From positions 10,270-74,269 of the forward strand of contig CAYMHT010000003.1 of the NCBI GenBank assembly GCA_964390305.1: 64,000 bases of DNA. Direction: 5' to 3'. Shown here piece after piece: positions 13,789 through 64,000 of this stretch. The notes below the pieces were generated by a model that made no database searches, was not told where the DNA came from, and saw only the letters and a program-made list of their open reading frames with translations. Origin of the DNA: an uncultured Anaerolineales bacterium. Its GTDB lineage: Bacteria; Chloroflexota; Anaerolineae; B4-G1. How positions within the stretch are numbered: the stretch's first letter is position 1; each line of letters begins with the position of its first letter. Made by a program: the position numbers and the translations under genes.

Positions 13789-13832
13789 GGCGTCGAAGAC
13801 CAACGTGTGATTGTGGAACGGACGCGGATAAG

Positions 13833-13870
13833 GCGGAGACGGGGCTTCCCTGTCTCCGCTTTCTCGTCTC
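13833..13870 (+). terminator. Intrinsic terminator after rplY/ctc
   Basis: 12-bp GC-rich stem (GCGGAGACGGGG / CCCTGTCTCCGC), 4-nt loop, then TTTCTCGTCTC. Confidence 0.6.
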
Positions 13871-13928
13871 TGGCGGGTGTATCCGCACGTGTGGATGATG
13901 GACGCAGGCGTCGCTGAAGTCCGGCTGC

Positions 13929-13957
13929 TTGACACTGGTAGGCTAAACGTATAGAAT
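13929..13957 (+). promoter_or_regulatory. Sigma-70-type promoter of cbpA-htrA operon (TTGACA-N17-TAGAAT)
   Basis: Consensus -35 at 13929-13934 and -10 at 13952-13957, 25 nt upstream of cbpA. Confidence 0.5.
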
Positions 13958-13981
13958 GATTTCCCAAGGATAGGATGATGG

Positions 13982-14962: not shown

Positions 14963-14964
14963 GA

Positions 14965-46800: not shown

Positions 46801-47612
46801 TCCTCAATCTTGAGCGGCAGGGCTGCCTCAGACTCGGTCTCCGGGAGTACGTCAACGTAACGGTAGTGGGGCTCACGACTTACGTCTCCCGCCAGAATCT
46901 CCTCACCCGTCTGTGCCACGTGCCCGACGATTCCCTGACCGAGCCGCACAGACGGTGTGGGGGAACGCCGATGCTCATCACTGGATCCGGGTTGGGTAGG
47001 CCCGGCACTCGCGCGGCAGACGAGCGTCTCTTCGTCAGGCTCGAGAGTAAAAAGGGCTACGTAATAGTATCCGAAGGTGCGGAGGACAAGCGTTACCACG
47101 CGACGAGCAAGCTCATCCAGATCGAGGACGCTTGCGACCTCGGCGCTGACCGTGCGCACGAGGGCGAGCTGGCCCAGCCGCCAGCGCTCAGCGGCGACCC
47201 GGCGATCTGCTCGCAGCGCCGTGGCCGCCTGAGTCGCAAGCCCTTGGAGGAGCTCTATCTCCGCGTCACTGAAGTGGGCACCCTCCTGACGTTTCACCTC
47301 TAAGACGCCCAGCGTACCCTCAGGCGTGCGGAGAGGCGCGGCCGCGGTGCCGTCCTCGACCACCAGGCTTGTGCTCCTGAGAGCGCGACGCATCGTCGTC
47401 GACGACGGCTCAGAAGGTGGCGCAGGGCCCTCCACTGACGGGCGCCCGCGCAGTTCCTGGCTTAGCCAGAGTGTGGCTTCTCCTTCTAGCAGGTCTTCTG
47501 CCGCCTGCAGGATCAGCTCTTGCTGAGTGGCGACTCTGGGCTCGTTCAGCAACTGCTCGCCCAGCTCGAGAAGCCGGTGCCACCTACGGGGTGTCGGAGG
47601 GCCGCTGGTCAT
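43863..47612 (-). CDS. Multi-GAF (≈5-6 GAF domains) PP2C/SpoIIE-type phosphatase (RsbU/RsbP-like partner-switching phosphatase)
   Basis: 1249 aa with repeated GAF-like blocks and a C-terminal SpoIIE/PP2C domain (DFYDVF..., GLVIADVADKGMPAALFMALT, DGITEA). Overlaps rsbW by 29 nt. Confidence 0.8.
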   Translation of the reverse strand: MTSGPPTPRRWHRLLELGEQLLNEPRVATQQELILQAAEDLLEGEATLWLSQELRGRPSVEGPAPPSEPSSTTMRRALRSTSLVVEDGTAAAPLRTPEGTLGVLEVKRQEGAHFSDAEIELLQGLATQAATALRADRRVAAERWRLGQLALVRTVSAEVASVLDLDELARRVVTLVLRTFGYYYVALFTLEPDEETLVCRASAGPTQPGSSDEHRRSPTPSVRLGQGIVGHVAQTGEEILAGDVSREPHYRYVDVLPETESEAALPLKIEERVLGVLDVQSNRPDRFDETDVLVLGALADQIAIAVEDARLYSALRRHADQLSAVTEVSRAVASILDLDELLSKVVALIHEQFGYPFVHLFTVDPARQKIVYRAGWPPGDPDAFDDSEPVCSLVDTEGIVAWVACHGETVLSNDVRDDPRYRPLAVPGVDARAELAVPLVFGGEVLGVLDVQSDRRDAFGDDDRFVFEALADSVAIAIRNANLYQSERWRRQVADSMRDVAGLLSSGIALEEVLDAILTRLEDLLPCDASAIWLLQDDTLCLSAVHGTTERACVSDSLLDADSWLRQALRADRPLVRSPTAPREPLGASLGFPSDYSAIAAPLRAGDRQLGLLTLAHRTPERYGTESRRMTAAFASYAAVAIENTRLYQRAQEQAYISTVLLQVAEATQSLVTLDEVLDTVVRLIPMLVGMERCALFLWDEVDALFLPAGACGLSEEQERAFDRLEVAPGDIPAFDRTRILKEPVFIERSPHEASSPLPPPLEGFESPLLLPLLAHGEVLGAMLVDYQPEQDVREPEGLREERVAIMRGIAYQAAAAAENARLLEERQEEAYVSAALLQVAQAVVSLNDLDEILEAIVRITPMLIGVERCAVFVWSDDEELFRPAQTYGGSLPDGAFATGEFPLLDLVREQNELITLDGPDEIGDLVPDELIGELAAEAPGERTALLAAPLSVKGNVLGAMVVGESGRSHRFGERRLEIITGIAQQTALAVQNDLLQQEMAERERLERELQLAHEIQETFMPEHLPHIPGWELAVAWRAARQVAGDFYDVFELPERKLGLVIADVADKGMPAALFMALTRTLMRAAAAERRSPSSALRRVNDLLVPDARHGMFVTALYAILSPETGRLVYASAGHHPPLVVRYGAGSIEQLERGEIALGVVEGAQFHEHETVLAPGDYMVLYTDGITEAVSPQRAFYGEERLRDVIQAPSRDRSAEAVLNAVLDSVAAFVGDSPPSDDLTLMVVRRQEA

Positions 47613-48027
47613 CCTTACGTTTCACCATGGTCAGCACGTTGCCAGCCTCAGACTCGAAGTCGAAATCTACCTCATCCATAATCCGACGGATAAGGTAGAG
47701 CCCAAGGCCCCCGCCTGTTCGCTCCTCAAGGCCGCAGGTCAGGTCTGGCTCGGGTACCGTCTCGGGATCGAAGGGCCGGCCGGTGTCCCGAAGGGTCACA
47801 GTCAGTTCGTCGTGCTGGGTACGATAGGTGCATTTGATGACGCCGGCTCCTTCACCGCCGTAGGCATGCTCGATGATGTTGGAGCATGCTTCGTCCACTG
47901 CGAGTTGTACCTGATAGACGGTACACTCATCGAAGCCCGCCTGCTCGGCGGCGGCGGCGATGAACTGACTGATCGCTGCCAGGCTCTCGTATCGGGCGGG
48001 GAAGATCTTCGTCTGGGTCTTGCACAT
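47584..48027 (-). CDS. Anti-sigma factor / Ser kinase of RsbW-SpoIIAB type (HATPase_c)
   Basis: 147 aa with an N-box (VDEACSNIIEHAY) and a GxG ATP lid. Confidence 0.8.
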   Translation of the reverse strand: MCKTQTKIFPARYESLAAISQFIAAAAEQAGFDECTVYQVQLAVDEACSNIIEHAYGGEGAGVIKCTYRTQHDELTVTLRDTGRPFDPETVPEPDLTCGLEERTGGGLGLYLIRRIMDEVDFDFESEAGNVLTMVKRKDDQRPSDTP

Positions 48028-48112
48028 GAGCCCTGTAAGGGACGCGGAGACGTCCCAGATTTGCGGAGGACTGGCCTACGCCTTGCGCCTGAGGTGAGGG
48101 AAGGACTTGCCG

Positions 48113-48448
48113 CTAGAAGCTGGCCACAGCCTCTACAACCTCATCGTAGAAGTCGAACAGGGCCACGAAACCAGCCAGATCGAAAGCCTCGTAGATAGGC
48201 TCGGGCACGTTCGCCAACACCAGTTCTCCGCGGTTCAGACGGTGGCACGTCTTCTGCGTATTGATGAGGACCCGTAGACCCGCACTCGAGATGAAGTCGA
48301 CATCGCCCATGTCGAGCACGAGGTTGCACTGTCCTTCGTCGGTGAAGTCCGTCAATGTTCCTGCCAGCTGCGGTGCTGTGGCACTGTCGATCCGGCCCGA
48401 CACCTCGATCACCGCACAGCGCTTGAACTCCCTCGCAGCGATTTCCAT
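48113..48448 (-). CDS. STAS-domain anti-sigma-factor antagonist (RsbV/SpoIIAA-like)
   Basis: 111 aa with the STAS motif DMGDVDFISSAGLRVL and a phosphorylatable Ser. Confidence 0.8.
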   Translation of the reverse strand: MEIAAREFKRCAVIEVSGRIDSATAPQLAGTLTDFTDEGQCNLVLDMGDVDFISSAGLRVLINTQKTCHRLNRGELVLANVPEPIYEAFDLAGFVALFDFYDEVVEAVASF

Positions 48449-49141: not shown

Positions 49142-49419
49142 CGGTCTCAGGATGCGTCCAAGAACAACCTCTCATTCACAATGACGCACATGGAGGCGAG
49201 TCTGCCTCCGAAGGATGAGGGTCTTCTTGAACGTAGCCTGACTGGTTGCTGAAAGTACCTGGTCGCTCGAGTCGCGCCGCCATGTTCGTTGGCGTACGAT
49301 TCTCCAGGTAACGAAGCGTTACCTCTCTGGAGTCTGAACTGGGTTCGACCACCCGTGGAGCCAGTCCAGGGAGGAGACAAGGCTCTTTGGTTTCTGACAG
49401 ACACGCGGAGGAGGATGTC

Positions 49420-51015
49420 GTGAAGATCCGACTGATCGAGCCCAAAGCTCCTGGGCTCAACGTTTTTGACCGGGCGCTTCTGCCGCGCCTGGGGTTACCG
49501 TTGATGGGACGCGTGCTGGTCGATCACGGTCACGACGTGCGTATCTACGTGGAGACGTTGGCGCCGGTCGATTGGGACGATATTGCGGAGGCCGACCTGA
49601 TCGGTTTCTCCACCACCACAGCGACGACGCCGACCGCTTATAGGATGGCGGGGCGGGTACGTGATCTGGGTATCCCGACCGTCATCGGAGGCCCCCACGT
49701 CACATTCCTGTCCGACGAGGGATTGGAGCACTGTGACTTCGTCGTCCGTCGAGAGGGGCAGGAAACGATGCTAGAGCTGGTTGATGCGCTGGAGGGAGAG
49801 GGTGATCTGGGCAACATCGCCGGCCTCTCGTATCACGATGCGACAGGGCGGCAGATCCACAACCCTGACCGTCCACCCTGCCCGCCGGAGGAGTTCGAGA
49901 CACTTCCGGCTCCGGCGCTGGATCTGATCGTCGGTCATGAGCAGATGACGAACATCCCCATCATGACGCAGTGGGGCTGCCCTTTCAACTGCGACTTCTG
50001 CTCGGTGATCCATATGTTTGGGCGGCGCGTACGCGCCCGCGCTATCGAGAATGTGCTCGAGGAGTTGGAGAGCTATCGCGATCGCGGGCCTGTCTTCTTC
50101 TACGATGACAACTTCGTGGTGGACAAGCGGCGCACCAAGGCGTTGCTGAGGGGGATGGTGGAACGGGACTTGACGCCTCCGTGGTCGGCTCAGATGCGGG
50201 CCGAGGCGGTCTACAAAGATAAGCGAACCCGAGAGCTGGACCACGAGTTACTCAGGCTGATGCGAGATTCGGGTTGCACGATGGTCTACTGCGGTTTCGA
50301 ATCCGTGAGCCAGGCAACCCTGGAGGCCTACAACAAACATCAGGACGTACGTGACGTCCGAGATAGCGTGCAGGCCTTTCACGCCTACGGCATTCACGTG
50401 CACGGGATGTTTGTCCTGGGCGCCGATACCGACGACAAGAGCATCTTCGGGCGGACGGTTGACTTCGCGCTCGAGCAGGAGATCGATACAGTCCAATTCC
50501 TGATGCTCACGCCCTGTCCGGGCACCCCTTTCTATGAGCGGGTAGTGGAGCAAGGTCGCCTTCTGACCGACGATCTCAGCCTGTACGACGGCCACCACTG
50601 TGTCGTCCAGCCGAAGCAGATGAGCGCCTACGAGTTGCAAATGGGCGTCATAGGCGCCATGGCCCGTTTCTACTCTGTGCGGCATGTGCTGAGCCTCTTC
50701 CTATCCAACGTGACGAGAAATCTACCGTTCTTGGTTGGCCTCCTTTGGCGGGAGAGAAAGCTCCGACTGCAGCTCCCCCGATTGGCGTTCTTCTCCCTCC
50801 TGCCTTCACGCTGGCCCGACCTGTTGGGTGTCCTGAGGGACGCGCTGTCGCGTGAATCGTGGAATCGGCTGCAGGACATCTTAGTGGTGCCCATGCTCCG
50901 TCTCTACGGCTACAGGCACGTCAAGGACTGGCTTAGTCAGTCCAGGTCGCAGGCCTACATCAACCGACTCCGCCAGCTCGTGGAACCAAGACGGCGGGCG
51001 GCCGGCGCGTCGTAG
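49420..51015 (+). CDS. B12-binding domain / radical SAM protein (second class B-like rSAM)
   Basis: B12-binding N-domain, CxxxCxxC (GCPFNCDFC) and a radical SAM core. GTG at 49420 sits 6 nt after RBS GGAGGAGG; the ORF track start at 49387 is TTG. Confidence 0.75.
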   Translation: MKIRLIEPKAPGLNVFDRALLPRLGLPLMGRVLVDHGHDVRIYVETLAPVDWDDIAEADLIGFSTTTATTPTAYRMAGRVRDLGIPTVIGGPHVTFLSDEGLEHCDFVVRREGQETMLELVDALEGEGDLGNIAGLSYHDATGRQIHNPDRPPCPPEEFETLPAPALDLIVGHEQMTNIPIMTQWGCPFNCDFCSVIHMFGRRVRARAIENVLEELESYRDRGPVFFYDDNFVVDKRRTKALLRGMVERDLTPPWSAQMRAEAVYKDKRTRELDHELLRLMRDSGCTMVYCGFESVSQATLEAYNKHQDVRDVRDSVQAFHAYGIHVHGMFVLGADTDDKSIFGRTVDFALEQEIDTVQFLMLTPCPGTPFYERVVEQGRLLTDDLSLYDGHHCVVQPKQMSAYELQMGVIGAMARFYSVRHVLSLFLSNVTRNLPFLVGLLWRERKLRLQLPRLAFFSLLPSRWPDLLGVLRDALSRESWNRLQDILVVPMLRLYGYRHVKDWLSQSRSQAYINRLRQLVEPRRRAAGAS

Positions 51016-54884: not shown

Positions 54885-55379
54885 ATGAGCAGAGACCAAG
54901 AGGGGGGTCTGCCTGTGTTTAGCCTGGGAACACTGAGCCAGTTGGTCTCGAGCGTCGACTCCGTGCTGGAGACGATCAACGCGTGGGTCAGGGGAACCAG
55001 GGGGTGGAAGCGGAGGCTGCAGCTCGAGCTGCTGAGCAACATTGAGCTCGTTTTCTCATACGCCAAGTACGACCTGCCCGTCGACGACGTGATTGCCAAC
55101 CTGCAGACCGAGAATATGAAGGCCGCGTTGGAGTCGGGCTTCAACTTCAACTCGCTGAAGAGGGGCAAGCTGAAAGGCGACGTGGCGGGCGATCAACCTC
55201 AATATCAGCAGTACGTGGGCTGGTCCACCGAGAGGTTGTTCTCCAATATCTACGTGAAGATCAAGGATCTGCAGACGATCGTCAGAATGGATCCCGACAA
55301 TGAGAAGATTCGCAAGGGGGTTCGGCTGACGAATATCCTCAAACTGATGCTGCTGCTGATGAAGCACATCAACGCATAG
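54885..55379 (+). CDS. Hypothetical protein (164 aa), compositionally atypical
   Basis: ATG start; the 3' half is ~49% GC versus ~64% for the window; no recognisable domain. Confidence 0.4.
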   Translation: MSRDQEGGLPVFSLGTLSQLVSSVDSVLETINAWVRGTRGWKRRLQLELLSNIELVFSYAKYDLPVDDVIANLQTENMKAALESGFNFNSLKRGKLKGDVAGDQPQYQQYVGWSTERLFSNIYVKIKDLQTIVRMDPDNEKIRKGVRLTNILKLMLLLMKHINA

Positions 55380-55441
55380 CGGCTCTTCGGTCCCAGGAGT
55401 TCCTCCGTCATCGGCGCCACGCAGTCTGAACCACCGAACGT

Positions 55442-56596
55442 CTAGTCCGGCCAGAGGCGAAGCTGGCGGGGGGGACGGCGTCCGTCAAGGAGCACAAAGG
55501 GAGCAGCGCGCTTGCTGGCGATTCCCAGACTGCCCAGGTCGCTCAGATCCCGCAGCCTGCCGCGACGGCGGGCTTCCGCGATCCTGTCGGCGCTCTTTGG
55601 CCCGATCCCGGGTACGCGCAGCAGCTCCCGCCGGCTGGCGGTGTTGATCTCGACCGGAGCCTCTGCAAGGCTACGCCGTGCCCAGGCGAGCTTCGGATCC
55701 ACCTCCAGGGGGAGATTCCCACCGCGGTTGAAAGGCAGCTCCTCCGCACTGAAGCCGTAGTCACGGATGAGGAATGACGCCTGATAGAGCCGGTGCTCCC
55801 GCTCAGGCGGCGCCGGGGGATGATCCTCCAGCGGGGTGTCTGGAACCGGCGTGAAGGCCATGAAGTAGGTCCGCGCCAGACCGGCCTCCCGATGCAGGAA
55901 CTCCGTCGTCGTCAGGAGCTCGACGTCGCTCTCGTCGCCGGCTCCGACGACGAACTGGGTCGTGGAGCTCGGCCAACGCCCCGGTCTCTGCTGCCGGATC
56001 TCCTCGATCCAGCGCAGCCGTTGCAGTAGCTCGATGTCGAATGTCTTGTGGGGCGCAAGCGAGCTGAGACGTCTGGTGTTAGGCGCTTCCAGATTGACGG
56101 ACACGCGATCCGCCAGGCGCATCGCCGTCTCGACCTGATCCCGCTCGGCGCCGGGCATGATCTTCAGATGGATATAGCCGCGGAACTCGTACCTCTGGCG
56201 CAGCATCTTGGCGGTCGCGATGAGGCGGTCCTCGGTGTTGGGTCCGCCGCCGGCGATGGCAGAGCTGAGGAATATGCCCTGGGCCATACCGCTCTGATGC
56301 ATGTGCATGAAGAGGCGCGCCAGTTCGTCCGGAGAGAAGGCGGCTCGCCGGAAGTCGCGTCCCTGACGGAAGGCGCAGTAGTGGCAGTCGCGTTCACAGG
56401 CGGAGGTGAGAAGCGTCTTAAGCAGGGCGATGCGCTTGCCACCGGGCATCACTGCGTTGTGAACGCATCTGGTGACGTCATCGACGCGTGGATGGATCGG
56501 GGATGGGCGCCCGAACGCCACCTCCTCGGCTGGTTCGAAGCAGGCGGCCGGTCCCAGCAGCTTCAGTTTCTCGACAGCGTCCATCGCCTCCTCCAC
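55442..56596 (-). CDS. Radical SAM DNA modification/repair protein with C-terminal helix-hairpin-helix (TIGR03916-like)
   Basis: CxxxCxxC (CERDCHYC) radical SAM core and a C-terminal ComEA-like HhH (NTASRRELLRVPGIGPKSADRIAEARR). A Cheo box overlaps the start region; the start codon is GTG. Confidence 0.75.
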   Translation of the reverse strand: MEEAMDAVEKLKLLGPAACFEPAEEVAFGRPSPIHPRVDDVTRCVHNAVMPGGKRIALLKTLLTSACERDCHYCAFRQGRDFRRAAFSPDELARLFMHMHQSGMAQGIFLSSAIAGGGPNTEDRLIATAKMLRQRYEFRGYIHLKIMPGAERDQVETAMRLADRVSVNLEAPNTRRLSSLAPHKTFDIELLQRLRWIEEIRQQRPGRWPSSTTQFVVGAGDESDVELLTTTEFLHREAGLARTYFMAFTPVPDTPLEDHPPAPPEREHRLYQASFLIRDYGFSAEELPFNRGGNLPLEVDPKLAWARRSLAEAPVEINTASRRELLRVPGIGPKSADRIAEARRRGRLRDLSDLGSLGIASKRAAPFVLLDGRRPPRQLRLWPD

Positions 56597-56608
56597 CAGC
56601 GATTATAC

Positions 56609-56622
56609 GAACAGGTGTTCGG
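56609..56622. promoter_or_regulatory. LexA operator of Gram-positive/Cheo-box type (CGAACAGGTGTTCG)
   Basis: Perfect GAAC-N4-GTTC palindrome with flanking C/G, 13 nt upstream of the GTG start and RBS of the radical-SAM/HhH repair gene. Confidence 0.6.
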
Positions 56623-56912
56623 ATTGTCAAGCAAGCGTGGGAGAGTGTTGAATAAGTCGCGGCTGGCTCAACCGGTGGGGCACGCACGCCGTACAACTGG
56701 GCACTATCCTTATGCGCTCCCTATTTGAGGCCCGTCTTAATCCAACAGTGGGGCGTCTGCCCTGTGCGATCGGTCATTCAAGGTGTTTTTCAAGACTCTC
56801 CGTGGTACGCGCGCGGCGAGACGCTCTCGGGCTGAGGTGACATTCTGCGCGGGGCGTGGGTTGCGGATGCGCTGACTTGGGAGAAGAGTCAACGCAGGAC
56901 AGGGCTCGGCAC

Positions 56913-57128
56913 TCAACGATGCTCTGTCGTCGCCTGGTGCTTATCGTCCTCCAGGGGGGTGAAGCGGCGGATGAAGGCTAGCAACCCATCCACGTCCAGG
57001 AACGCGGCGCTCTCGCCGCTCTGCACGTGGTCGACGCGACCGCGCCACCGGACGCCTCCCGCCGACCACTCGGACCAGAGCCGGACGACGAAGGTATTGG
57101 CGGGGTCGACTCTGGAGGGCTCAGCCAT
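56913..57128 (-). CDS. Small hypothetical protein (71 aa)
   Basis: GC3 ~85%, consistent with a coding ORF; no domain recognised. Confidence 0.4.
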   Translation of the reverse strand: MAEPSRVDPANTFVVRLWSEWSAGGVRWRGRVDHVQSGESAAFLDVDGLLAFIRRFTPLEDDKHQATTEHR

Positions 57129-57248
57129 GCGAGGTCCTCTCGGTGTCCAAGGCCTTCAGGTTGTGAGAAGCGGAAGGAGGTGTGGGTGGCAGCGAGGGCC
57201 GGGAGAAGACCCGTCAGGCCCCCGCTGCTGGACGATTGACGTTCTCCA

Positions 57249-57821
57249 CTACCTGGCACGACCGTGGGCCCGGCGCAGTCCCAGGGCTACGAGAAGCAGC
57301 CCGGTGATGCTCAACCACGGCAGGAGCACCGCCGCGCGAGGGGTTCCACCGGTCGCCGGCAAGGCTGCCATGGCGGCCTCAAACTCTGCCAGCGATGCAT
57401 CGGTCATCTCTTCCGTGTACGATTGGATCTTGCCCTCCTGCACGACACCCTCGCCCGTATACTCAACCGGTGCGATGCCGAGCGCCTCAAAGTCATCCAT
57501 CCAGACCTTGTTGGACCAGGTGACCTTGTCGCCGTCGACCTCGAGGTCGCTGGGCTCCACGTAGATGTTCTGCGCCACCAGCCCCTCGTACCAGGCTCGG
57601 ATCTGGTCCTTCCCCTGAATGGGCCCGCTGCCCGTGAGATCCGGTACAAACGTGAGGACGGCGTCATCGGCAACCAGCTCCACGGCGGCATCGACGTCGC
57701 CTGCGTTCAAGGCGTCTGCTAGACTGGAAAGCACTCCCGCAGGGTCCGTCTCCTGTGCGTATGCGACTGTGGGCGCTGCAATCCCAGCGACCAGCGCCAA
57801 CACGACGAGAAACTTCTTCAT
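57249..57821 (-). CDS. Secreted SnoaL/NTF2-like protein with C-terminal LPXTG-type sortase sorting signal
   Basis: Signal peptide MKKFLVVLALVAGIAAPTVAYA. C-terminus has LPATGG, a hydrophobic helix and a basic tail (RRAHGRAR). Confidence 0.65.
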   Translation of the reverse strand: MKKFLVVLALVAGIAAPTVAYAQETDPAGVLSSLADALNAGDVDAAVELVADDAVLTFVPDLTGSGPIQGKDQIRAWYEGLVAQNIYVEPSDLEVDGDKVTWSNKVWMDDFEALGIAPVEYTGEGVVQEGKIQSYTEEMTDASLAEFEAAMAALPATGGTPRAAVLLPWLSITGLLLVALGLRRAHGRAR

Positions 57822-58006
57822 GTTTACCTCCTACAGTATTGAATCTACCTTCATGCTGGGCGCTCCCTTCCTCAACCTACTGCCTTCTCCCGACAAGAGT
57901 GTACTACGCGACTCTCAAAACAGTCGCAAAAGCTGTCGCTGGCAACAAGAAAACCCGGTCTCTCGAAGGGACCGGGTTTTCACGCTGCGACCTTCACCTG
58001 AGGCTG

Positions 58007-61000
58007 TCAATGTGGTTCGATGATCACGTCCTTCCAGAATCTGTCGCTGATTGGTGATATGGGCAGGCTTCTCACCCACGGCTTCACCAGTAGGTGCGAT
58101 CGCATGTAGGCCAGGGGCAGGATGGGTCCTTCCTCGACCAGAATTCTGTCTGCTTCCCGGTATAGCTGTATCCGCTCCTTCTGGTCGGTGAGTCGCCGGG
58201 CTTGCTCCACGAGGTTCTGGTACTCCTTGTCTTCCCATCCGGTATAGGGGAGCACGTGGCCCATGCCCACGCGCAAGAGGTTGTCGGGATCGGGATAGTC
58301 GGCCACAAACCCCCAAAGGACGGCATGGGGCGGCGCCGTCTGGAGCCTGGCGAAGAACTGCTCCCAGTCCACGGCCTCCAACCGGGTCTCAACCCCCAGC
58401 ACGCTGCGCCACTGCTCCTGCAGGTACCTGGCTGCCACCGGAGAGAGAGGATCAAGGTGCATCATCAACGTCACCACAGGCAAGTCTCGACCACCTGGGA
58501 ACCCGGCGTCGGCCAGAAGCTGTCGCGCCTTTCGAGGATCGTATGAGCGACCCATCGCTGGCGTATGTCCTGGCATGTGCGGCGGTACCAACCCGCCAGT
58601 CGCCGGCGAACAGATCCCACGAAGGGCTACACCCGCCAGACTCTTCCGATCCGTGGCCTGCGCAAAAGCCTGGCGGACCCGCAGATCGTCGAAGGGGGCG
58701 CGGCGGAGGGAGAACGCGGCGTAAGAAGGGTAGAGCCGGGGACTGGAAACGTATTCGTCAGCGTGTCGCCGGCGCCCGCGGTCTATCTCTGCTGGTGGGT
58801 AGAACCCCATGTCCAGGAGATCCAGCCGGTCGGCCTCGTACGCCCTCAACCCGGTCGCTGGATCGTCTCCCAGCACGGTGAGTTCAATCCGTCGCAGGTT
58901 GCCCCTGACTGGTCCGTGATATCGGGGGTTGTTCGTCAGTATCATGACCTTCCCCCGCCGCCACGTGTCCGGCTTGAACGGGCCATTGGTGACAATATTC
59001 GCCACCCTCGTCCAGGCCTCACCGTGTTCCTCTACCACGTGCTGGGCCACAGGACACGTAGCGCTGTGCGCCAGCAGATGGAGGAAGTAGCCGGCGGGCT
59101 CGTCCAGCTCCACGACCAGCGTAGCCCCGTCGCGAGCTCGCACCGCGACGCAGTCCGGATCCGCCGACTCTCCCAGGTGGTAGGCTCTGGCTCCCTTGAT
59201 GTCGTACAGCAGCGTAGCGTTGGGGGAGCCGGCCGCCGGATCCAACACCCGCTTCCAGGCGTACTCGAAGTCCGTTGCCAGTACCGGCGTTCCGTCGCTC
59301 CAGTGAACGTCGTCTCGCAGATGGAACACGTACCGAAGTCCCTGATCCAGAATCTCCCAGCTCCGAGCCAGGTCGGGCACCACATTCATCTTGGGACCGT
59401 GCTCTACCAGCCCGCTGAAGAGTTGTTCCAACACGAGAACAGAAAACACGTCGCCGCCCGCAGCTGGGTCCAGGCTCATCGTGCGATCCTGCCAAGACAT
59501 TCGGAGAGTATGAACGGCGGGTGGCGAGACCGCTTCTTCCGTCGTCGTCGCCCGCTGCCAGAAGGCGAACCCTTGCTCGTAAGCTCTTTGGGCTGCAGCG
59601 AACCTGAAGCAGTTGTGATAGGTCAGTCCCATCTTCATCAGCGTCCGTGCCGCGCGCCTGTACCGCCCCTGCTCCTTGAGCAGAGCCAGCCCCCGTTGGT
59701 AGTAGTCGATCGCCTCCTGGCAGGCGTACACCTGGCGGGCCTGATCTCCTGCCAGCGACAGGTAATGGATCGCCTTGTCCGTCAGCGTGTCGTCCAGTTG
59801 CCGCCCGTGTTCGAAGTGGAAGGCCAATGCGCCGGCCTGGGCTTCGGCCTCTCGGTCGTACAACCTTTCCATCGTCCTTCCAACCAAGCCGTGCACGTGT
59901 TGCCGCCGCCGTCGTTCCATCCCGGCGTAGACCACCTCCCGGATCTTGTGATGGGTGAATGCGTAATCGCAGCCCATCGCCCCGTGGCTCTCTTCGAGCA
60001 ATCGATGTCGCAGCAACTCATCGAGGGCCTCGAGCGTCGCCTCGACGCCCCGGCCCCAGATCGCATCGAGCAGATCGAAACTGAACTCGGTCCCCAGCAC
60101 GGCTGCCATCCGCAGCGCGTCGCTCGACTCCTCCCTCAGGGGCTCCACGCGAGCCTCTACGACCTCGCGCACACCGGCAGGCAACGGAAGTGGACGTGCA
60201 CTGATGCGGGCGAAATCGCCCTGCCAGGCACCTCCCTCCAGCCGCAGTTCGCCCGCCTGGAAGAGCGCCCGGATCGTCTCTATCAGGAACAGAGGGTTGC
60301 CCAACGTCTCTCGGTGGAGCTGGCGCGCCAACGGTGCGATCGCCTGGCCCGCTCCTGACACGTCCTGCAGGAGCACTTCGGTCGCCTCCAGCGAGAGGCG
60401 CGATAGACGCAGCTGGTCGATCAGGTCCTCCTGGGCTAGCTGCCGCCGCAGGCCCAAGAGCGGGTGACTGGGTCTGGTTGCCTCGGATCGGAAAGTACCG
60501 ACTGCTAGAATCGGGTGACCGGGCAGGCGGCGGGCCAGGTAGTGGACCAGCGCCAGGGTCGACTCGGGAGCCCAGTGAAGGTCCTCCAAGGTAACTAGAA
60601 GAGGGCCGTGGGACGCTAGCTCGGTCAAGAGAACCGTCATCGCGTCAAAGAGACGGGCCTGCTCCTGCCCTGCCGGTGCGGCCGAGACCGCATGCCCCGC
60701 ATCCCTTTCAGGCCTCTGTTTCGATCCCAGGCGTTCTTTGCTCGAGACAGCCTTGTCCGACATCTCCGGCACCAGGCGGGCCACCGCCTCCAGGGTCCAG
60801 ACAGGGAGGTCCCTCAATTCAGCTCCGTTCAGGGCCGGGAGGACGCTTCGCAGTGCCTCCGTAAAGGGCTGGTATGGGAGCTCCCGCTCGAACTCATAGC
60901 AGCGTCCCCGCAGCACCCGTGCGCCTTTCCAGCGCGCTCGGCGTGAGAACGCCTCGACAAGACGGGTCTTACCCACGCCGGCCTCGCCTCTGATGAGCAC

Positions 61001-61930
61001 AAGCCCGCCTGATCCTGCCCTGGCCCGTTGCCAGCGCTTGCGGAAGAAGTCCAACTCTCTTTCCCTGCCTACCAGCGGCGTGGAAAGGGCGGCGTCGAGA
61101 GGGTTGCGTCCTGGAGTGATCACGGTCTCTCCCACCGACTCCTCGATGGAGGCAACGTCGCGTTCAGGACCGAGCGGAAAGCGACCATCCCGGATCTCGT
61201 GGTACAGCTCGGTGGTCTCCGCCGTGGGATCCACGCCCAGCGCCTGCTGCAGATTCTCCTGACAGCGGGCGTACTGCTCCAGTGCGGCGTTGCGACGGCC
61301 CAGCCGGCAGTAGGCCCGCATCGCGGCGCGGTGCGCCCCCTCCCGCAGCGGGTCCTGGTGAAGCAGCCGCATGGCCGTGGTCAGCATGGCTGCATAGTCT
61401 CCTCTGCCTCCGCGATGCGCCATCACCCGCTCAAGGATCTCCGCAAAGCGAGCCTCCAACCGGTACCGTTCGTTGATGATCCAGTCGTCGTAGAAGCCGT
61501 CCAGGAAATCCCCGCGGTAGAGCGCTATGGCTGACTCCAGGCTCCCTATCTCCTCACCCGAGGCCTGATTCTCAAATTCCTCCACATCAAGCCACAGATC
61601 CGCCTGAGGATCAAACTGAACAGTGTGTAGATCGCTGACGATGAGTTCTTCGTCGGGGAGGCAGCGGCGGATGTGCCATAGGGCCGTCGAGAGGGAGCTT
61701 CGCGCCTTCTGTTCTGGTCGGTCGCCCCAGAACATCCCTGCCAGGCGCTCGCGGGGTTGCGGTTGATCACGTTGGAGAACCAGGTAGGCCAGCAGCGACT
61801 GCGACTTGAGCGTGGGGGGCTTGGGCAGCTGACGGTCGCCGGAGCGGATGTCCAGCGGCCCGAAGAGACGGATCTGCAGGATGGTCACGGCTTCCCTCCA
61901 TTGCCGCAGGTGCGACGCGGCACCGTCCAC
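58007..61930 (-). CDS. SARP/AfsR-family regulator (wHTH+BTAD) fused to NB-ARC/AAA ATPase, TPR repeats and a C-terminal family-5 solute-binding domain (SBP_bac_5)
   Basis: N-terminus has the SARP signature (LQIRLFGPLDI..., LLAYLVL, ALYRGDFLDG) and a P-loop ([10 protein letters not shown]). TPR region follows, then a ~500-aa DppA/OppA-like SBP_bac_5 domain (HWSDGTPVLATDFEYAWKRVLDP, NGPFKPDTWRRGKVMILTNNPRYHG, RVRQAFAQATDR). No signal peptide. Confidence 0.75.
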   Translation of the reverse strand: MDGAASHLRQWREAVTILQIRLFGPLDIRSGDRQLPKPPTLKSQSLLAYLVLQRDQPQPRERLAGMFWGDRPEQKARSSLSTALWHIRRCLPDEELIVSDLHTVQFDPQADLWLDVEEFENQASGEEIGSLESAIALYRGDFLDGFYDDWIINERYRLEARFAEILERVMAHRGGRGDYAAMLTTAMRLLHQDPLREGAHRAAMRAYCRLGRRNAALEQYARCQENLQQALGVDPTAETTELYHEIRDGRFPLGPERDVASIEESVGETVITPGRNPLDAALSTPLVGRERELDFFRKRWQRARAGSGGLVLIRGEAGVGKTRLVEAFSRRARWKGARVLRGRCYEFERELPYQPFTEALRSVLPALNGAELRDLPVWTLEAVARLVPEMSDKAVSSKERLGSKQRPERDAGHAVSAAPAGQEQARLFDAMTVLLTELASHGPLLVTLEDLHWAPESTLALVHYLARRLPGHPILAVGTFRSEATRPSHPLLGLRRQLAQEDLIDQLRLSRLSLEATEVLLQDVSGAGQAIAPLARQLHRETLGNPLFLIETIRALFQAGELRLEGGAWQGDFARISARPLPLPAGVREVVEARVEPLREESSDALRMAAVLGTEFSFDLLDAIWGRGVEATLEALDELLRHRLLEESHGAMGCDYAFTHHKIREVVYAGMERRRRQHVHGLVGRTMERLYDREAEAQAGALAFHFEHGRQLDDTLTDKAIHYLSLAGDQARQVYACQEAIDYYQRGLALLKEQGRYRRAARTLMKMGLTYHNCFRFAAAQRAYEQGFAFWQRATTTEEAVSPPAVHTLRMSWQDRTMSLDPAAGGDVFSVLVLEQLFSGLVEHGPKMNVVPDLARSWEILDQGLRYVFHLRDDVHWSDGTPVLATDFEYAWKRVLDPAAGSPNATLLYDIKGARAYHLGESADPDCVAVRARDGATLVVELDEPAGYFLHLLAHSATCPVAQHVVEEHGEAWTRVANIVTNGPFKPDTWRRGKVMILTNNPRYHGPVRGNLRRIELTVLGDDPATGLRAYEADRLDLLDMGFYPPAEIDRGRRRHADEYVSSPRLYPSYAAFSLRRAPFDDLRVRQAFAQATDRKSLAGVALRGICSPATGGLVPPHMPGHTPAMGRSYDPRKARQLLADAGFPGGRDLPVVTLMMHLDPLSPVAARYLQEQWRSVLGVETRLEAVDWEQFFARLQTAPPHAVLWGFVADYPDPDNLLRVGMGHVLPYTGWEDKEYQNLVEQARRLTDQKERIQLYREADRILVEEGPILPLAYMRSHLLVKPWVRSLPISPISDRFWKDVIIEPH

Positions 61931-62120
61931 ATTCGCATTCTATCATGCCGCATGGGCAGCGTCAAGGCTCGGTTCGTCGAAGCCCTCGAGCCCGTTGACG
62001 TATCGGGGCGTCGCTGACCGGATTCCTGGAAGCCGATTCGCGGCGATTCAGCGCGAGGTCACGGAGAGGGTCTTTGACTGGCCGATAGTGCGTGCCCCAG
62101 GGTGCCTTTGCGCGAGCCCG

Positions 62121-63563
62121 CTACTGTCGCACCAGCACATACCGTCCGCGGGTGGTCTGCGAGGTGGCGGTATAGAGGTAGGTTGCCGGGCCGACGAAGA
62201 CGAGGTCTCCGTGGCCGATGCCCCAGTTGTTTGACACGTCCATGATCACTGGGTTGCCCGGATATTTCTCCCAAGGGCCGTCGATAGCCGGTCCCACGCT
62301 GCGGGCGAAGCCGAGCGCAAACTGATCGTCCACGACGGTTGGCTCGCTGGGGCCGCGCACTCCTTCGTACGTCATGTAGTAACGTTCGCCCAGGCGCACC
62401 ACGTCGGCTGAGGAGATGGTGCGGAACTCGAAGTAGGGGTTGGCGTCGGCTCCTCGCGCGTCGAGCGGACCGTACCCGTTCTCCGCACCGAACAGGGGGT
62501 TGGAGGCGCACTTGCGCAGGCCCGCCGCCCCGTCAGCTTTGCTCCCAACGTAGCAGCCCATGTGGCCCGGATCTCGGCCCAGGCCGACGAATACGTACAG
62601 GAGATCCCCCTCCACGATGACTCCCGGTGGTGCGCCGACCAGGCAGTCGCCGAACTCGGTCTCGGCGTAGATATTGGGGTGATCCCCGATCGATTCGTCC
62701 TCTGTGCACGGTCTCGTCGCGGACTCCCACTGCCCGGTGCCCGGCACGTGCGTCTCAGCTCCCCAGTGGATGCCGTCAGGCGAGGTGCGAAGATAGACAC
62801 CGGCGCCCCATTCGTACACGATGTAGGCACGAGCGGTATCGAAGAAGACGCGGGGATACTGCTGCTGTCCTGTGTGATCACGCTCTTGACGGCACGGGCA
62901 GCTGCTGCACGGAAAAAGACAGACCGGCCTCTCCAGCGAGAAATGGACCCCGCCGTCGTGACTCTTCCACAGTGTGACGCATCCCGGGAAAGGGGCCGGA
63001 TTCCCGCACGAATCAACGACCCCTGCCGACCTGTAACTGGCGTGGAGGTACGACCAAAACTCGCCCCCGCCTCGATAGACCGTGTCGGATTCACCGACCG
63101 GCAGGCCCACGTCGTGTGTCTCCACCACCCACTCAGCGGCCCCTGCCCAGAACTCGTCGAGCGTCGCAAAGCTGCGCCCGGGCGGTGGAACGGGCACGAA
63201 GGCCTGGGCGGTGGGAGTCGGCGGCATCGTGGGCGGTGGGGGTGGCTCCGTCGGCGAAGGTGTCACGAGCGCCGGGGTGACAGTTGGCGCCACTCGAGTG
63301 GGCATCAGCGTGGCTGTTGGTGTTGGTGCGGGCGTCGGTGTACTCGCGGGCGGGGGGCTGGGCTTCGGCAGAGGAGACGCTGTTGCAAGTGGTACGTGGG
63401 TCGCGGTGGCAGGGGGCAGGGCCGTAGTCGTCGCCTGGACTGTCGGACCCACTCCTGAACCTGCTGTGGGCCCGCGGGGTGGGTTCGAGCCACAACTGGC
63501 CGGAGCGAGCAAGGCGAGCATCAACAGAACGGTAACCGGCATAACACGGCGTCGATCTCCCAT
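62121..63563 (-). CDS. Secreted/lipoprotein with Pro/Thr-rich linker and beta-propeller-like C-terminal domain (hypothetical)
   Basis: Signal peptide with a lipobox-like LLAPASCGS, a ~110-aa PT-rich linker, then a ~330-aa globular domain with GH43/sialidase-like propeller character (weak). Confidence 0.5.
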   Translation of the reverse strand: MGDRRRVMPVTVLLMLALLAPASCGSNPPRGPTAGSGVGPTVQATTTALPPATATHVPLATASPLPKPSPPPASTPTPAPTPTATLMPTRVAPTVTPALVTPSPTEPPPPPTMPPTPTAQAFVPVPPPGRSFATLDEFWAGAAEWVVETHDVGLPVGESDTVYRGGGEFWSYLHASYRSAGVVDSCGNPAPFPGCVTLWKSHDGGVHFSLERPVCLFPCSSCPCRQERDHTGQQQYPRVFFDTARAYIVYEWGAGVYLRTSPDGIHWGAETHVPGTGQWESATRPCTEDESIGDHPNIYAETEFGDCLVGAPPGVIVEGDLLYVFVGLGRDPGHMGCYVGSKADGAAGLRKCASNPLFGAENGYGPLDARGADANPYFEFRTISSADVVRLGERYYMTYEGVRGPSEPTVVDDQFALGFARSVGPAIDGPWEKYPGNPVIMDVSNNWGIGHGDLVFVGPATYLYTATSQTTRGRYVLVRQ

Positions 63564-63660
63564 GTTGGCTCAGGAGTCTAGCCCATGAAGGGCGGAAGGG
63601 CAAGCACTGATGGTGCGGCCGATCTGCGGATTCGTCGTGCCCTCAGCGCACTGCCCGGTA

Positions 63661-63691
63661 ACAACAAAAAGGGAGCCAACGAGTGGCTCCC
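63661..63691 (-). terminator. Intrinsic terminator downstream of rplT
   Basis: Minus strand reads GGGAGCCACTCGTTGGCTCCC followed by TTTTTGTTGTT. Confidence 0.65.
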
Positions 63692-63715
63692 TATGCGCCG
63701 CTTGCATGTCCGAAG

Positions 63716-64000
63716 TTAGGCGATCGCGTCCTTCGCCACGTGAACGATCTCCGCGAACGCGTCACGGTCCCGGACAGCGAGATCGGCCAGAATCTTCCGA
63801 TCCAGGGCCACGTTTGCTTCCTTCAGCCCGTGGATGAAACGGCTGTAGGGCATTCCGTTCTGTCGGGCCGCTGCGTTGATGCGTGTGATCCACAGCCGCC
63901 GGAGATCGCGCCGGCGCTGTCGTCGGTCACGGTAGGCATACCACTGGGACTTCATCCAGGCTTCGTTGGCCCGGCGGAAAAGATCATGCCGCGTTCCCCA
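63716..64000 (-). CDS. rplT: 50S ribosomal protein L20 (3' portion; start lies beyond window end)
   Basis: [26 protein letters not shown] signature; the frame is open to nt 64000. Confidence 0.85.

What the first reader, a model, noticed from the sequence alone, without database searches (positions are those of the whole stretch)
58007..61930. 1307-aa SARP-AAA-TPR regulator fused to a periplasmic-type family-5 solute-binding domain
The N-terminal 250 aa are a classic SARP/AfsR wHTH+BTAD module. This is followed by a P-loop NTPase ([10 protein letters not shown]), TPR repeats and then a complete DppA/OppA-like SBP_bac_5 domain (~500 aa). There is no signal peptide, so the SBP domain would be cytoplasmic. 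It may act as a ligand sensor (peptide, nickel or opine-like) that gates a STAND-type transcriptional switch. This domain combination is, to my knowledge, not functionally characterised. Neighbours are secreted or anchored proteins: an LPXTG SnoaL-like protein and a PT-linker propeller protein.
Basis: partly seen in the sequence, partly recalled or inferred. Interest (0 to 1): 0.65.

Follow-up and report, generated by a model that had tools for sequence, protein, structure and literature searches.

The report
Cytoplasmic SARP switch with OppA-like sensor
This is a real, conserved 1293-residue cytoplasmic transcription activator of Anaerolineae bacteria in which an oligopeptide-binding-protein fold replaces the usual sensor of an AfsR-type ATP switch, and it appears to turn on the operon just downstream, which ends in a conserved, unannotated 71-residue protein.

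Summary
The ORF is intact and carries wHTH+BTAD (SARP), an AAA_16 P-loop NOD, a short helical-repeat arm and a complete OppA/MppA/DppE-like SBP_bac_5 fold. It has no signal peptide or TM segment. The true start is most likely GTG 61888 (1293 aa), not 61930.

It is not a fusion artefact. More than 120 protein clusters share the full length at 51-72% identity, almost all from Chloroflexota/Anaerolineae MAGs.

New findings:
- Right after the regulator's terminator lies a canonical SARP promoter: two 11-bp-spaced TTTTG(C/A)GA(C/G) repeats, 8 bp, then a -10. It is unique in the window and recurs behind 21 of 24 SBP-type homologues.
- It drives an LPXTG SnoaL-like gene and then a conserved 71-aa protein with no Pfam family. 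The layout resembles AfsR→afsS.
- Repeat variants co-vary with a recognition-helix residue.
- SBP and long-TPR sensors have been swapped repeatedly on the same chassis.
- Pocket-equivalent residues are conserved among close relatives and divergent between paralogues. The α-amino-anchoring Asp is kept, and the carboxylate anchors are lost.

Most likely this is a ligand-gated STAND activator. The ligand is unknown.

Verdict: a new variant of a known kind, uncharacterised, of moderate-to-good interest.

The parts
58007..61888 (-). Regulator CDS, 1293 aa plus stop. The ORF extends to an upstream GTG at 61930, which is probably not used.
   Evidence: P0001, 100% identity, 1293 aa; promoter position.
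61937..61965 (-). The regulator's own sigma70-like promoter: TTGACG, 17 nt, TG-TAGAAT.
   Evidence: 10 of 12 matches; 2 sites found versus 0.5 expected in shuffles.
61190..61888 (-). SARP module, residues 1-233: OmpR-type wHTH plus BTAD. The recognition helix is KARSSLSTALWHIRR (residues 61-75).
   Evidence: (AfsR 8k60 and 8hvr, EmbR 2fez).
60506..61078 (-). AAA_16 P-loop NOD, residues 271-461. Walker A GEAGVGKT is at 301-308 and Walker B LVTLEDLHW at 431-439.
   Evidence: (invariant G304, G306, K307).
59507..60505 (-). Helical and winged-helix part of the NOD (invariant FTHHKI motif at 644-649) plus a short helical-repeat (TPR-like) arm, residues ~462-794.
   Evidence: FTHHKI used as family pattern; helices; TPR_12 in homologues.
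58010..59506 (-). Complete OppA/MppA/DppE-like SBP_bac_5 fold, residues ~795-1293. It has no signal peptide. D1197 corresponds to OppA D419.
57950..57980 (-). Terminator-like hairpin after the regulator stop codon: aaaacccggtc...gaccgggtttt.
   Evidence: Read directly from the sequence.
57898..57931 (-). SARP-box promoter TTTTGCGACTG TTTTGAGAGTC GCGTAG TACACT. It has two direct repeats at an 11-bp period. The conserved core of the 3' repeat ends 8 bp before the -10 (TACACT).
   Evidence: 31.8 bits, versus 10.4 for the next best hit in the whole window on both strands. Also. The geometry rule is from PMC10936776.
57249..57821 (-). First gene of the target operon: secreted SnoaL_2/NTF2-like protein, 190 aa, with an LPATGG sortase-type anchor.
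   Evidence: SnoaL-like genes recur at this position in other loci.
57189..57228 (-). GC-rich hairpin between the SnoaL gene and the small ORF.
   Evidence: -30.5 kcal/mol, z = -3.5. A comparable hairpin is present in 19 of 43 loci.
56913..57128 (-). Conserved small protein, 71 aa: MAEPSRVDPANTFVVRLWSEWSAGGVRWRGRVDHVQSGESAAFLDVDGLLAFIRRF... It is the invariant output of the cassette.
   Evidence: (E = 3e-25).

Best explanation
The gene encodes a soluble cytoplasmic STAND-type transcription activator of the 'large SARP' kind.

Shown by sequence or computation:
- An N-terminal wHTH+BTAD effector.
- An AAA_16 P-loop NOD.
- A short helical arm.
- A C-terminal OppA-like clamshell in the position where sister paralogues carry a ~400-residue TPR sensor.

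Inferred mechanism. In the resting state the sensor and arm hold the ADP-bound NOD closed. When a cytoplasmic ligand binds in the SBP cleft, autoinhibition is released. The ligand is probably a peptide-like molecule with a free amino group, because the Asp equivalent to OppA D419 and the aromatic pocket residues are kept while the C-terminal carboxylate anchors are lost. The NOD then exchanges nucleotide and oligomerises. Two SARP domains bind side by side to the two 11-bp-spaced TTTTG(C/A)GA(C/G) repeats that replace the -35 element of the promoter immediately downstream of the gene. RNA polymerase is recruited.

This activates an operon made of a variable 'cargo' followed by a conserved 71-aa beta3-alpha protein. 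Here the cargo is an LPXTG-anchored SnoaL-like surface protein. By analogy with AfsS, the small protein may act back on the regulator or pass the signal on.

Paralogous cassettes in one genome use different repeat variants and different pocket residues. They therefore look like insulated sensor-promoter-output units.
For: Architecture: AF2 pLDDT 87.9, pTM 0.79; TM 0.8-0.9 to OppA, MppA and DppE.

The family is real and conserved.

Cytoplasmic location: no TM segment; Opp permease genes near only 1 of 76 loci.

The sensor position is modular:
- Paralogues 55-60% identical over residues 1-738 carry a TPR domain instead.
- The two types are intermixed on the N-terminal-module tree, with at least 8 switches.

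Target promoter:
- It is unique in the window: 31.8 bits versus 10.4 for the next best hit.
- 55 of 64 strong sites in 1.83 Mb lie on the regulator's strand, most of them 2-350 nt after its stop.
- It is present behind 21 of 24 SBP-type regulators that have enough flank.
- Its geometry matches the published SARP rule: 11-bp period, with the 3' repeat 8 bp from the -10 (PMC10936776).

Cognate recognition. Residue 67 of the recognition helix co-varies with the half-site. T67 goes with TTTGGCAC in 7 of 7 cases versus 1 of 24 others, and the change arose in separate clades.

The pocket looks functional and diversified:
- D1197, W1175, F1194 and Y1056 are kept.
- Pocket-equivalent positions are at least as conserved as the rest among close relatives (0.91 vs 0.72). 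They are much less conserved among distant pairs (0.27-0.34 vs 0.48-0.63).

Small-protein output.

Precedent in AfsR/AfsS: PMC10832544.
Against: - No ligand is known, and nothing here shows binding.
- Pocket positions were mapped from E. coli OppA by sequence alignment, using a contact list recalled from the OppA literature.
- The carboxylate-anchoring residues of OppA (R413, H371, K307) are replaced by L, S and L.
- The alpha-amino Asp is present in only 46 of 69 family members.
- Pocket hypervariability (entropy 2.40 vs 1.46 bits) could also mean relaxed constraint.
- The AF2 model resembles open, unliganded forms, which says nothing about competence.
- AfsR itself responds to ATP and phosphorylation rather than to a defined sensor ligand, so a ligand is not obligatory.
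- Promoter activity and regulator binding are inferred from sequence only.
- Co-variation statistics are not corrected for phylogeny.
- All relatives come from uncultured MAGs.
Confidence: 0.5

Rival explanations
1. The SBP fold is a ligand-less scaffold. It has been kept only as an autoinhibitory lid or oligomerisation surface. The switch is driven by something else, such as ATP level, phosphorylation or a partner protein, as in AfsR.
For: - The carboxylate anchors are lost and the pocket-equivalent positions are the most variable part of the domain.
- The model is in an open form.
Against: - Pocket positions are conserved at least as well as the rest among close relatives: 0.91 vs 0.72, 0.78 vs 0.65 and 0.61 vs 0.57. 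Decay would not produce this.
- The whole 500-residue two-lobe fold and its hinge are retained at high predicted confidence.
- The alpha-amino Asp and the aromatic residues are kept here.
Confidence: 0.2
2. The SBP cleft (and the TPR domain in sister paralogues) binds a protein tail rather than a metabolite. The most attractive candidate is a terminus of the co-transcribed 71-aa protein. That would give AfsS-like feedback on the regulator.
For: - The small gene is the invariant partner of both sensor types.
- AfsS binds AfsR and enhances its promoter binding (PMC10832544).
- Both OppA-like and TPR domains are peptide binders.
- The small proteins have a conserved M-[AT]-E-[PS]-S N-terminal tail outside the folded core.
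Against: - The same N-terminal tail motif occurs next to SBP-type and TPR-type regulators, and next to SBP paralogues with different pockets. So no tail-pocket co-variation is visible.
- No complex prediction could be run.
- The small protein has none of the internal repeats that AfsS needs for binding.
Confidence: 0.15
3. The ORF is an assembly or frameshift artefact that joins a SARP-AAA regulator gene to an adjacent oppA-like transporter gene. Alternatively, the SBP part is really an exported transport component.
For: Some sources name homologues 'ABC transporter substrate-binding protein'.
Against: - More than 120 independent clusters and ~30 genome loci have the same uninterrupted 1270-1300-aa architecture.
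- The junction is conserved.
- There is no signal peptide, lipobox or TM segment.
- Opp permease or ATPase genes lie near only 1 of 76 loci.
- NCBIfam OppA and DppA scores are far below the equivalog cut-offs.
Confidence: 0.02

Closest known systems
AfsR / AfsS of Streptomyces (large SARP of the STAND class and its downstream small-protein target)
   Same: - N-terminal wHTH+BTAD effector, central P-loop NOD and C-terminal sensor.
- Target promoter with two 11-bp direct repeats that overlap the -35 and end 8 bp from the -10.
- The main target is a small gene immediately downstream on the same strand.
   Different: - The NOD matches AAA_16 rather than the NB-ARC clade.
- NCBIfam AfsR score is 47 bits against a cut-off of 1430.
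- The sensor is an OppA-like SBP fold instead of TPR.
- The small protein is a folded beta3-alpha domain without AfsS-type repeats.
- The phylum is Chloroflexota, not Actinomycetota.
- Many paralogous cassettes occur per genome, each with distinct box variants.
MalT and other STAND transcription factors with helical-repeat sensors (e.g. PH0952, the LAL family)
   Same: An AAA_16-type NOD is followed by an arm and a sensor that binds the inducer and relieves autoinhibition. General model: PMC6468293 and PMC10427625, listed.
   Different: The effector is a SARP at the N-terminus rather than a C-terminal LuxR HTH. The sensor is a two-lobe clamshell rather than a superhelix.
Periplasmic cluster-C peptide-binding proteins: OppA, MppA, DppE (B. 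subtilis), DppA
   Same: - Complete three-domain SBP_bac_5 fold.
- E = 1e-55 to 1e-60 to PDB chains and TM 0.8-0.9.
- It keeps the Asp that anchors the peptide alpha-amino group and the flanking aromatic residues.
   Different: - Not exported and not next to a transporter.
- The carboxylate anchors R413, H371 and K307 are replaced.
- Covalently attached to a transcription switch.
Cytoplasmic regulators built on periplasmic-binding-protein folds (LacI/GalR with Peripla_BP, LysR-type effector domains)
   Same: The principle is the same: an SBP-type clamshell is re-used inside the cell as the effector-binding domain of a transcription factor. This rests on my own knowledge. The Peripla_BP_3 sensor role is mentioned in PMC10443332.
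   Different: Those use class I/II PBP folds of ~250-300 residues coupled directly to an HTH. Here a ~500-residue family-5 (cluster C) SBP is coupled through an ATP-driven STAND module.

Membership tests
SARP (Streptomyces antibiotic regulatory protein) effector | OmpR-type winged HTH followed by a BTAD domain at the N-terminus. | tested here: met
   BTAD E = 5.5e-28. Trans_reg_C is weak (E = 0.0028, below cut-off). PDB sequence hits are AfsR 8k60 (2.4e-8), AfsR 8hvr and EmbR 2fez.
SARP (Streptomyces antibiotic regulatory protein) effector | Target promoters carry direct repeats at an 11- or 22-bp period, with the 3' repeat 8 bp from the -10 element. | tested here: met
   The site at 57898..57931 has two repeats 11 bp apart, and the conserved core ends 8 bp before TACACT. 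The rule is quoted from PMC10936776. Actual binding is not testable here.
AfsR orthologue / classical 'large SARP' (SARP-NB-ARC-TPR) | Full-length similarity to AfsR (NCBIfam equivalog NF053617). | tested here: not met
   47.2 bits against a cut-off of 1430, and only residues 16-333 align.
AfsR orthologue / classical 'large SARP' (SARP-NB-ARC-TPR) | C-terminal TPR sensor domain. | tested here: not met
   Only ~5 helices (~125 residues) lie between the NOD and the SBP, and no TPR model passes threshold there. Sister paralogues do carry a ~400-aa TPR domain.
STAND NTPases | P-loop NOD with Walker A and Walker B, followed by a helical/winged-helix part and a sensor domain. | tested here: met
   AAA_16 E = 1.3e-30. 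GEAGVGKT and LVTLEDLHW are conserved. Residues 276-754 align with the NOD-TPR part of the TOMM kinase/cyclase STAND model (E = 1.9e-57).
STAND NTPases | ADP/ATP-dependent closed-to-open switch and inducer-triggered multimerisation. | not testable with these tools
   Needs ATPase, SEC-MALS or cryo-EM experiments.
SBP_bac_5 / cluster-C solute-binding proteins of ABC importers | Family-5 SBP fold. | tested here: met
   Pfam E = 3.1e-74, covering 357 of 368 model positions. Foldseek TMt is 0.80-0.90 to OppA, MppA and DppE.
SBP_bac_5 / cluster-C solute-binding proteins of ABC importers | Export signal (signal peptide or lipobox) and extracytoplasmic location. | tested here: not met
   The domain starts at residue ~795 of a protein whose N-terminus is a DNA-binding domain. 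There is no hydrophobic segment (max KD19 1.37).
SBP_bac_5 / cluster-C solute-binding proteins of ABC importers | Genetic linkage to ABC permease and ATPase genes. | tested here: not met
   OppB/C-like genes lie near only 1 of 76 loci, and none are in the window region.
OppA/DppA-type peptide binders | Asp that anchors the peptide alpha-amino group, and basic residues that anchor the C-terminal carboxylate. | tested here: inconclusive
   D419 maps to D1197, which is kept here and in 46 of 69 relatives. R413, H371 and K307 map to L, S and L. The mapping is by sequence alignment only. NCBIfam OppA and DppA scores are 200 and 124 bits against cut-offs of 947 and 1005.
AfsS-like small modulators | Small gene immediately downstream of the large SARP, transcribed from a SARP-box promoter. 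| tested here: met
   In this window one cargo gene lies between the promoter and the small gene.
AfsS-like small modulators | Two to five internal sequence repeats, which are needed for AfsR binding (PMC10832544). | tested here: not met
   The alignment shows a single conserved core with no repeats. AF2 predicts a beta-hairpin, a strand and a helix. Direct sequence comparison with AfsS was not done.
RRNPP-type peptide quorum sensing (regulator plus downstream propeptide gene) | The small downstream gene encodes a secreted propeptide with a signal sequence. The regulator is a TPR-HTH protein without an NTPase. | tested here: not met
   The small protein has no hydrophobic N-terminus and has a conserved folded core. 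The regulator has a NOD.

The most novel reading that the evidence does not exclude
Anaerolineae carry a previously undescribed, highly paralogous family of self-contained regulatory cassettes. Each cassette has four parts:
- a SARP-STAND switch with an exchangeable sensor, either an OppA-like clamshell or a TPR superhelix;
- its own private variant of a tandem-repeat promoter;
- variable, mostly secreted or cell-surface cargo genes;
- an invariant ~70-aa beta3-alpha protein from a family of thousands with no annotation.

In this reading the OppA-like sensors detect different intracellular peptides, for example cell-wall recycling peptides, given the MppA/DppE resemblance and the envelope cargo. 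The small protein would then be the functional counterpart of AfsS, closing a feedback loop on the switch. That would be the first cluster-C SBP shown to work as a cytoplasmic inducer-binding domain of an NLR-like ATPase.
Probability: 0.3. Interest if true: 0.75.

Novelty: new variant of a known kind. Interest (0 to 1): 0.6.

Why it matters
Large SARP/STAND regulators such as AfsR are being engineered to awaken silent gene clusters, yet their natural input signals are largely unknown. A natural version whose sensor is a well-understood peptide-binding clamshell offers three things:
- A tractable handle for ligand screening.
- A test of how a clamshell closure is transmitted to an NLR-type nucleotide switch.
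- A ready-made modular biosensor design (sensor, switch, private promoter).

It also assigns a first genomic context and a regulatory link to a very large small-protein family. That family has 7,532 clusters at 50% identity and no Pfam or NCBIfam model. The finding further shows that AfsR→AfsS-like wiring exists outside Actinomycetota.

Tried and rejected
- **Frameshift or fusion artefact.** Rejected on conservation.
- **Transport role.** Rejected: no export signal and no linked permeases.
- **RRNPP-like propeptide reading of the small ORF.** Rejected: there is no signal sequence and the core is folded.
- **Function of the small protein.** Pfam and NCBIfam gave nothing. Foldseek against the PDB gave only insignificant hits with E ≥ 0.8, dsRBD/S5-like.
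- **Rfam scan of 55000-64000.** No hits. The hairpin upstream of the small ORF is not a known RNA family.
- **First literature search.** Badly chosen terms returned only noise. Later targeted searches found no paper on BTAD+SBP_bac_5.
- **The look-up of encoding contigs for P0001.** Nothing found, so the source record and organism name are unknown. Placement in Anaerolineales rests on the nearest relatives.
- **Conserved metabolic pathway among cargo genes.** None found. Cargo is heterogeneous.

Full report

Yes. The minus-strand ORF 58007..61930 is open throughout. Pfam finds the following:
- BTAD, E = 5.5e-28.
- AAA_16, E = 1.3e-30.
- SBP_bac_5, E = 3.1e-74, covering 357 of 368 model positions.
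- A sub-threshold OmpR-type wHTH.

NCBIfam aligns residues ~817-1297 end to end with OppA-, YejA-like-, DppA-, GsiB-, SapA- and NikA-type models. All scores are far below their equivalog cut-offs. The central 276-754 aligns with the NOD-TPR part of a STAND model.

By sequence, the closest solved structures are as follows:
- For the C-terminal 500 residues: B. subtilis OppA and DppE, and E. coli/Salmonella OppA and MppA (E = 1e-55 to 1e-60).
- For the N-terminus: AfsR and EmbR.

There is no signal peptide or hydrophobic segment; the maximum 19-residue Kyte-Doolittle mean is 1.37.

The start needs one correction. A sigma70-like promoter, TTGACG-17-TG-TAGAAT, lies at 61965..61937. A GGAGGGA Shine-Dalgarno sequence precedes GTG 61888. 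The identical database protein is 1293 aa. The first GTG at 61930 is therefore probably not translated.

The 'TPR' part is short. It consists of about five helices between the NOD and the SBP in the AF2 model. Pfam TPR hits are seen only in homologues.

**2. Not an artefact, and not rare**

A search of 5.8 billion proteins returned at least 120 clusters that cover 100% of the query at 51-72% identity. All are 1265-1325 aa with the same Pfam set. Those that carry organism names are from Chloroflexi/Anaerolineae MAGs, and the annotations are generic ('ABC transporter substrate-binding protein', 'AAA family ATPase', 'SARP family').

A 29-sequence alignment is conserved across the domain junction and has an invariant Walker A.

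In one-genome-per-species GTDB contigs, 76 loci were recovered:
- Almost all are Anaerolineales, Ardenticatenales, Caldilineales or Thermoflexales.
- Several genomes hold two or three paralogues.
- About 30 loci have the SBP-type protein.
- About 30 have a sister type that is up to 59% identical over residues 1-738 but ends in a ~400-residue (or longer) TPR domain.

On a neighbour-joining tree of the N-terminal module, the two types are intermixed. At least eight state changes are needed. The SBP clamshell and the TPR superhelix are therefore exchangeable modules in the sensor position of one switch chassis. The tree has no support values, so the number is indicative only.

**3. What the regulator controls**

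Reading the DNA after the stop codons of all homologues revealed a conserved element. It has two direct repeats of TTTGACAC (variants TTTGAGAC, TTTGGCAC, TTTGATAC, TTTGGCGC) at an 11-bp period. These are followed after 8 bp by an extended -10 (TG-n-TAnnCT).

This is exactly the published signature of SARP-dependent promoters: 11- or 22-bp spacing, with the 3' repeat 8 bp from the -10 (PMC10936776).

A 34-nt weight matrix built from 23 sites gave these results:
- In the window, the site at 57898..57931 (-) scores 31.8 bits. The next best hit on both strands of the 64 kb scores 10.4.
- In 1.83 Mb of related loci there are 64 sites of at least 15 bits, and 55 are on the regulator's strand.
- Most of these lie 2-350 nt after the regulator's stop. 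The rest lie further into the downstream genes or on divergent promoters.
- Of the SBP-type regulators with at least 1.5 kb of downstream sequence, 21 of 24 have the box within 750 nt.

The two repeats of a site normally carry the same variant. Paralogues in one genome carry different variants: in MAG N9_380 they are GGCGC, GAGAC and GACAC.

The variant tracks residue 67 of the recognition helix (KARxSL[S/T/A/R]TALWHIRR). T67 goes with TTTGGCAC in 7 of 7 pairs and 1 of 24 others. The 7 include a distant TPR-type protein. A member nested in the T67 clade has switched both residue and box. This is uncorrected for phylogeny, but it points to direct, cognate recognition.

**4. The operon and the small protein**

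In the window the order on the minus strand is as follows:
- Regulator.
- Terminator hairpin (57980..57950).
- SARP box and -10 (57931..57898).
- A 190-aa secreted SnoaL_2 protein with an LPATGG anchor (57821..57249).
- A GC-rich hairpin.
- A 71-aa ORF (57128..56913).

Longest-ORF callers miss the 71-aa ORF because an antisense ORF (56959..57564, +) is longer.

An HMM of this small protein finds it on the same strand in ~48 of the 76 loci, nearly always downstream of the regulator. The gap ranges from 1 nt to ~6 kb. Among SBP-type loci with sufficient flank, 18 of 24 have it.

Key properties of the small protein:
- It has no Pfam or NCBIfam family.
- A full HMMER pass over 1.84 billion representatives finds 7,532 hits with E ≤ 1e-3 and 535 with E ≤ 1e-10.
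- Nearly all of the 150 best hits listed are stand-alone proteins of 60-100 residues.
- AF2 predicts a confident beta-hairpin, strand and helix core with disordered tails.
- No significant PDB neighbour was found.

The genes between the box and the small ORF ('cargo') vary. They include SnoaL-like proteins (recurrent), NmrA/epimerase-like proteins, secreted beta-helix/BNR proteins, DUF6064 membrane proteins, a transglutaminase-like protein, a thioesterase, OsmC and DinB. The small protein is therefore the constant output and the cargo looks like add-ons.

The layout mirrors AfsR→afsS. There, a small gene immediately downstream is the direct target, and its product binds AfsR and enhances promoter binding (PMC10832544). 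AfsS, however, is a repeat protein, and this one is not.

**5. The SBP domain as sensor**

The AF2 model of residues 95-1293 is confident (pLDDT 87.9, pTM 0.79). Its C-terminal part superposes on OppA, MppA and DppE with TM 0.80-0.90. The best matches are unliganded open forms such as apo-DppE 8azb.

Mapping E. coli OppA ligand-contact residues by alignment gives this picture:
- The Asp that anchors the peptide alpha-amino group is kept (D419→D1197). It is Asp in 46 of 69 relatives.
- Three aromatic residues are kept: W397→W1175, W416→F1194 and Y274→Y1056.
- The residues that cap the peptide C-terminus are replaced by L, S and L (R413, H371, K307).

Across the family the pocket-equivalent positions are the variable part of an otherwise conserved domain (entropy 2.40 vs 1.46 bits). 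The variation is structured, though:
- Among close relatives these positions are at least as conserved as the rest. For the window versus its three closest homologues the values are 0.91 vs 0.72, 0.78 vs 0.65 and 0.61 vs 0.57.
- Among pairs at 40-60% identity they drop to 0.27-0.34, against 0.48-0.63 for the rest.

That is the pattern of specificity-determining residues, not of decay.

Opp-type permease genes are near only 1 of 76 loci. Together with the sensor-swap evidence, this makes a cytoplasmic, diversified ligand sensor the best reading.

The ligand is unknown. A peptide-like molecule with a free amino group is the most economical guess. Murein-derived peptides are one candidate, given the MppA/DppE resemblance and the envelope cargo. 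That is speculation.

**6. Mechanism proposed**

The domain order, the conservation, the promoter, the operon and the co-variation are shown here. The following steps are inferred from established STAND and SARP knowledge (PMC6468293, PMC10936776):
- Autoinhibited ADP form.
- Ligand-induced clamshell change.
- Nucleotide exchange and multimerisation.
- Side-by-side SARP dimer on the two repeats, substituting for the -35.

The rivals are a ligand-less scaffold (0.2), a protein-tail sensor with small-protein feedback (0.15) and an artefact or transport role (0.02).

**7. Comparison and novelty**

The protein works like a large SARP/STAND regulator, but it is not an AfsR orthologue:
- AfsR model: 47 bits against a cut-off of 1430.
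- The NOD is AAA_16-type.
- There is no TPR sensor.

It has the OppA fold but fails the defining contextual features of a transport SBP.

Clamshell folds as cytoplasmic effector domains are well known in LacI- and LysR-type regulators. A ~500-residue family-5 SBP feeding an NLR-like ATPase is not described in the searchable literature. A 2026 survey of AfsR-like regulators lists only TPR and LuxR subgroups.

I therefore rate it a new variant of a known kind. It is common in Anaerolineae databases but uncharacterised. It also brings an unexpectedly clean, testable cassette architecture and a large unannotated small-protein family.

Interest: 0.6.

Noticed in passing
window 56913..57128 (-); also e.g. 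L022:6172-6447, L032:1029-1295: A ~70-aa protein family with the core motif TFVVRFWxEWS..RWRGRIEHVQSG..F.D...LL.F. It has no Pfam or NCBIfam model. It gives 7,532 hits among 1.84 billion cluster representatives. It lies on the same strand downstream of SARP-STAND regulators.
   Followed up: yes
window 56959..57564 (+): A 201-aa antisense ORF with high GC3 overlaps both the small ORF and the SnoaL gene. Similar 'MRPRQR' antisense ORFs clustered across loci (cluster 4). It looks like a high-GC artefact that hides the real small gene from longest-ORF callers.
   Followed up: partly
window 57189..57228 (-); L002, L016, L031-L034, L038, L046, L048 upstream of their small ORFs: Perfect GC-rich hairpins with 10-18 bp stems and differing sequences sit 20-90 nt upstream of the small ORF in 19 of 43 loci (z < -2). 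In L038 and L023 the hairpin lies inside the 5' leader, with no cargo gene before it. It may be an attenuator or an mRNA-stability element. There is no Rfam match.
   Followed up: partly
L069:2906-3937: A single reading frame joins a SARP domain (residues 1-~250, 64% identical) directly to a small-protein sequence, with the NOD and sensor missing. It is either a deletion derivative or a natural fusion. As a 'Rosetta stone' it hints that the SARP module and the small protein work together.
   Followed up: no
L002:11997-15449, L039:13052-14491, L065:11708-13141 and 13169-15910 (cargo proteins): Large secreted beta-helix/BNR cargo proteins end in, or contain, a shared motif (Y/F)LPL(I/V/A)(L/V)RN, e.g. 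RIFLPLALRNFGP, LYLYLPLVVRNGS and VFLPLIVRN. This may be a Chloroflexota C-terminal sorting signal.
   Followed up: no
L020:~11830-11900 and L023:~11830-11880 (just after the regulator stop): Short tandem repeats (GGTGACAG/GGTGACAA x8; CAACAGTCGACAGTCAACGGTCAACAGTCAACG) lie between the stop codon and the SARP box in two related loci.
   Followed up: no
L002 and L032 (same contig CAYMKL010000021.1, 13.7-55.2 kb): Three cassettes lie in the same orientation within ~40 kb of one contig: one SBP-type and two TPR-type, each with its own box and small ORF. This looks like a local array of paralogous sensor cassettes.
   Followed up: partly
window 43863..48448 (-): A 1249-aa protein with six GAF domains and a SpoIIE/PP2C phosphatase domain is followed by two small ORFs (147 and 111 aa). 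These look like anti-sigma factor and antagonist partners, suggesting a partner-switching module. Only the large protein was checked by Pfam.
   Followed up: partly
window 49387..51015 (+) and 55442..56596 (-): Two radical-SAM proteins flank a Lon protease gene: one with a B12-binding domain, and one with a C-terminal helix-hairpin-helix. No link to the regulator was found, and no SARP box lies near them.
   Followed up: no
window 62121..63563 (-): The upstream neighbour is a lipoprotein-like 480-aa protein with a long Pro/Thr-rich linker and only weak SoxD and GH43 hits. It is syntenic in the closest relative L001 but not in other loci, so it is probably not part of the cassette.
   Followed up: partly
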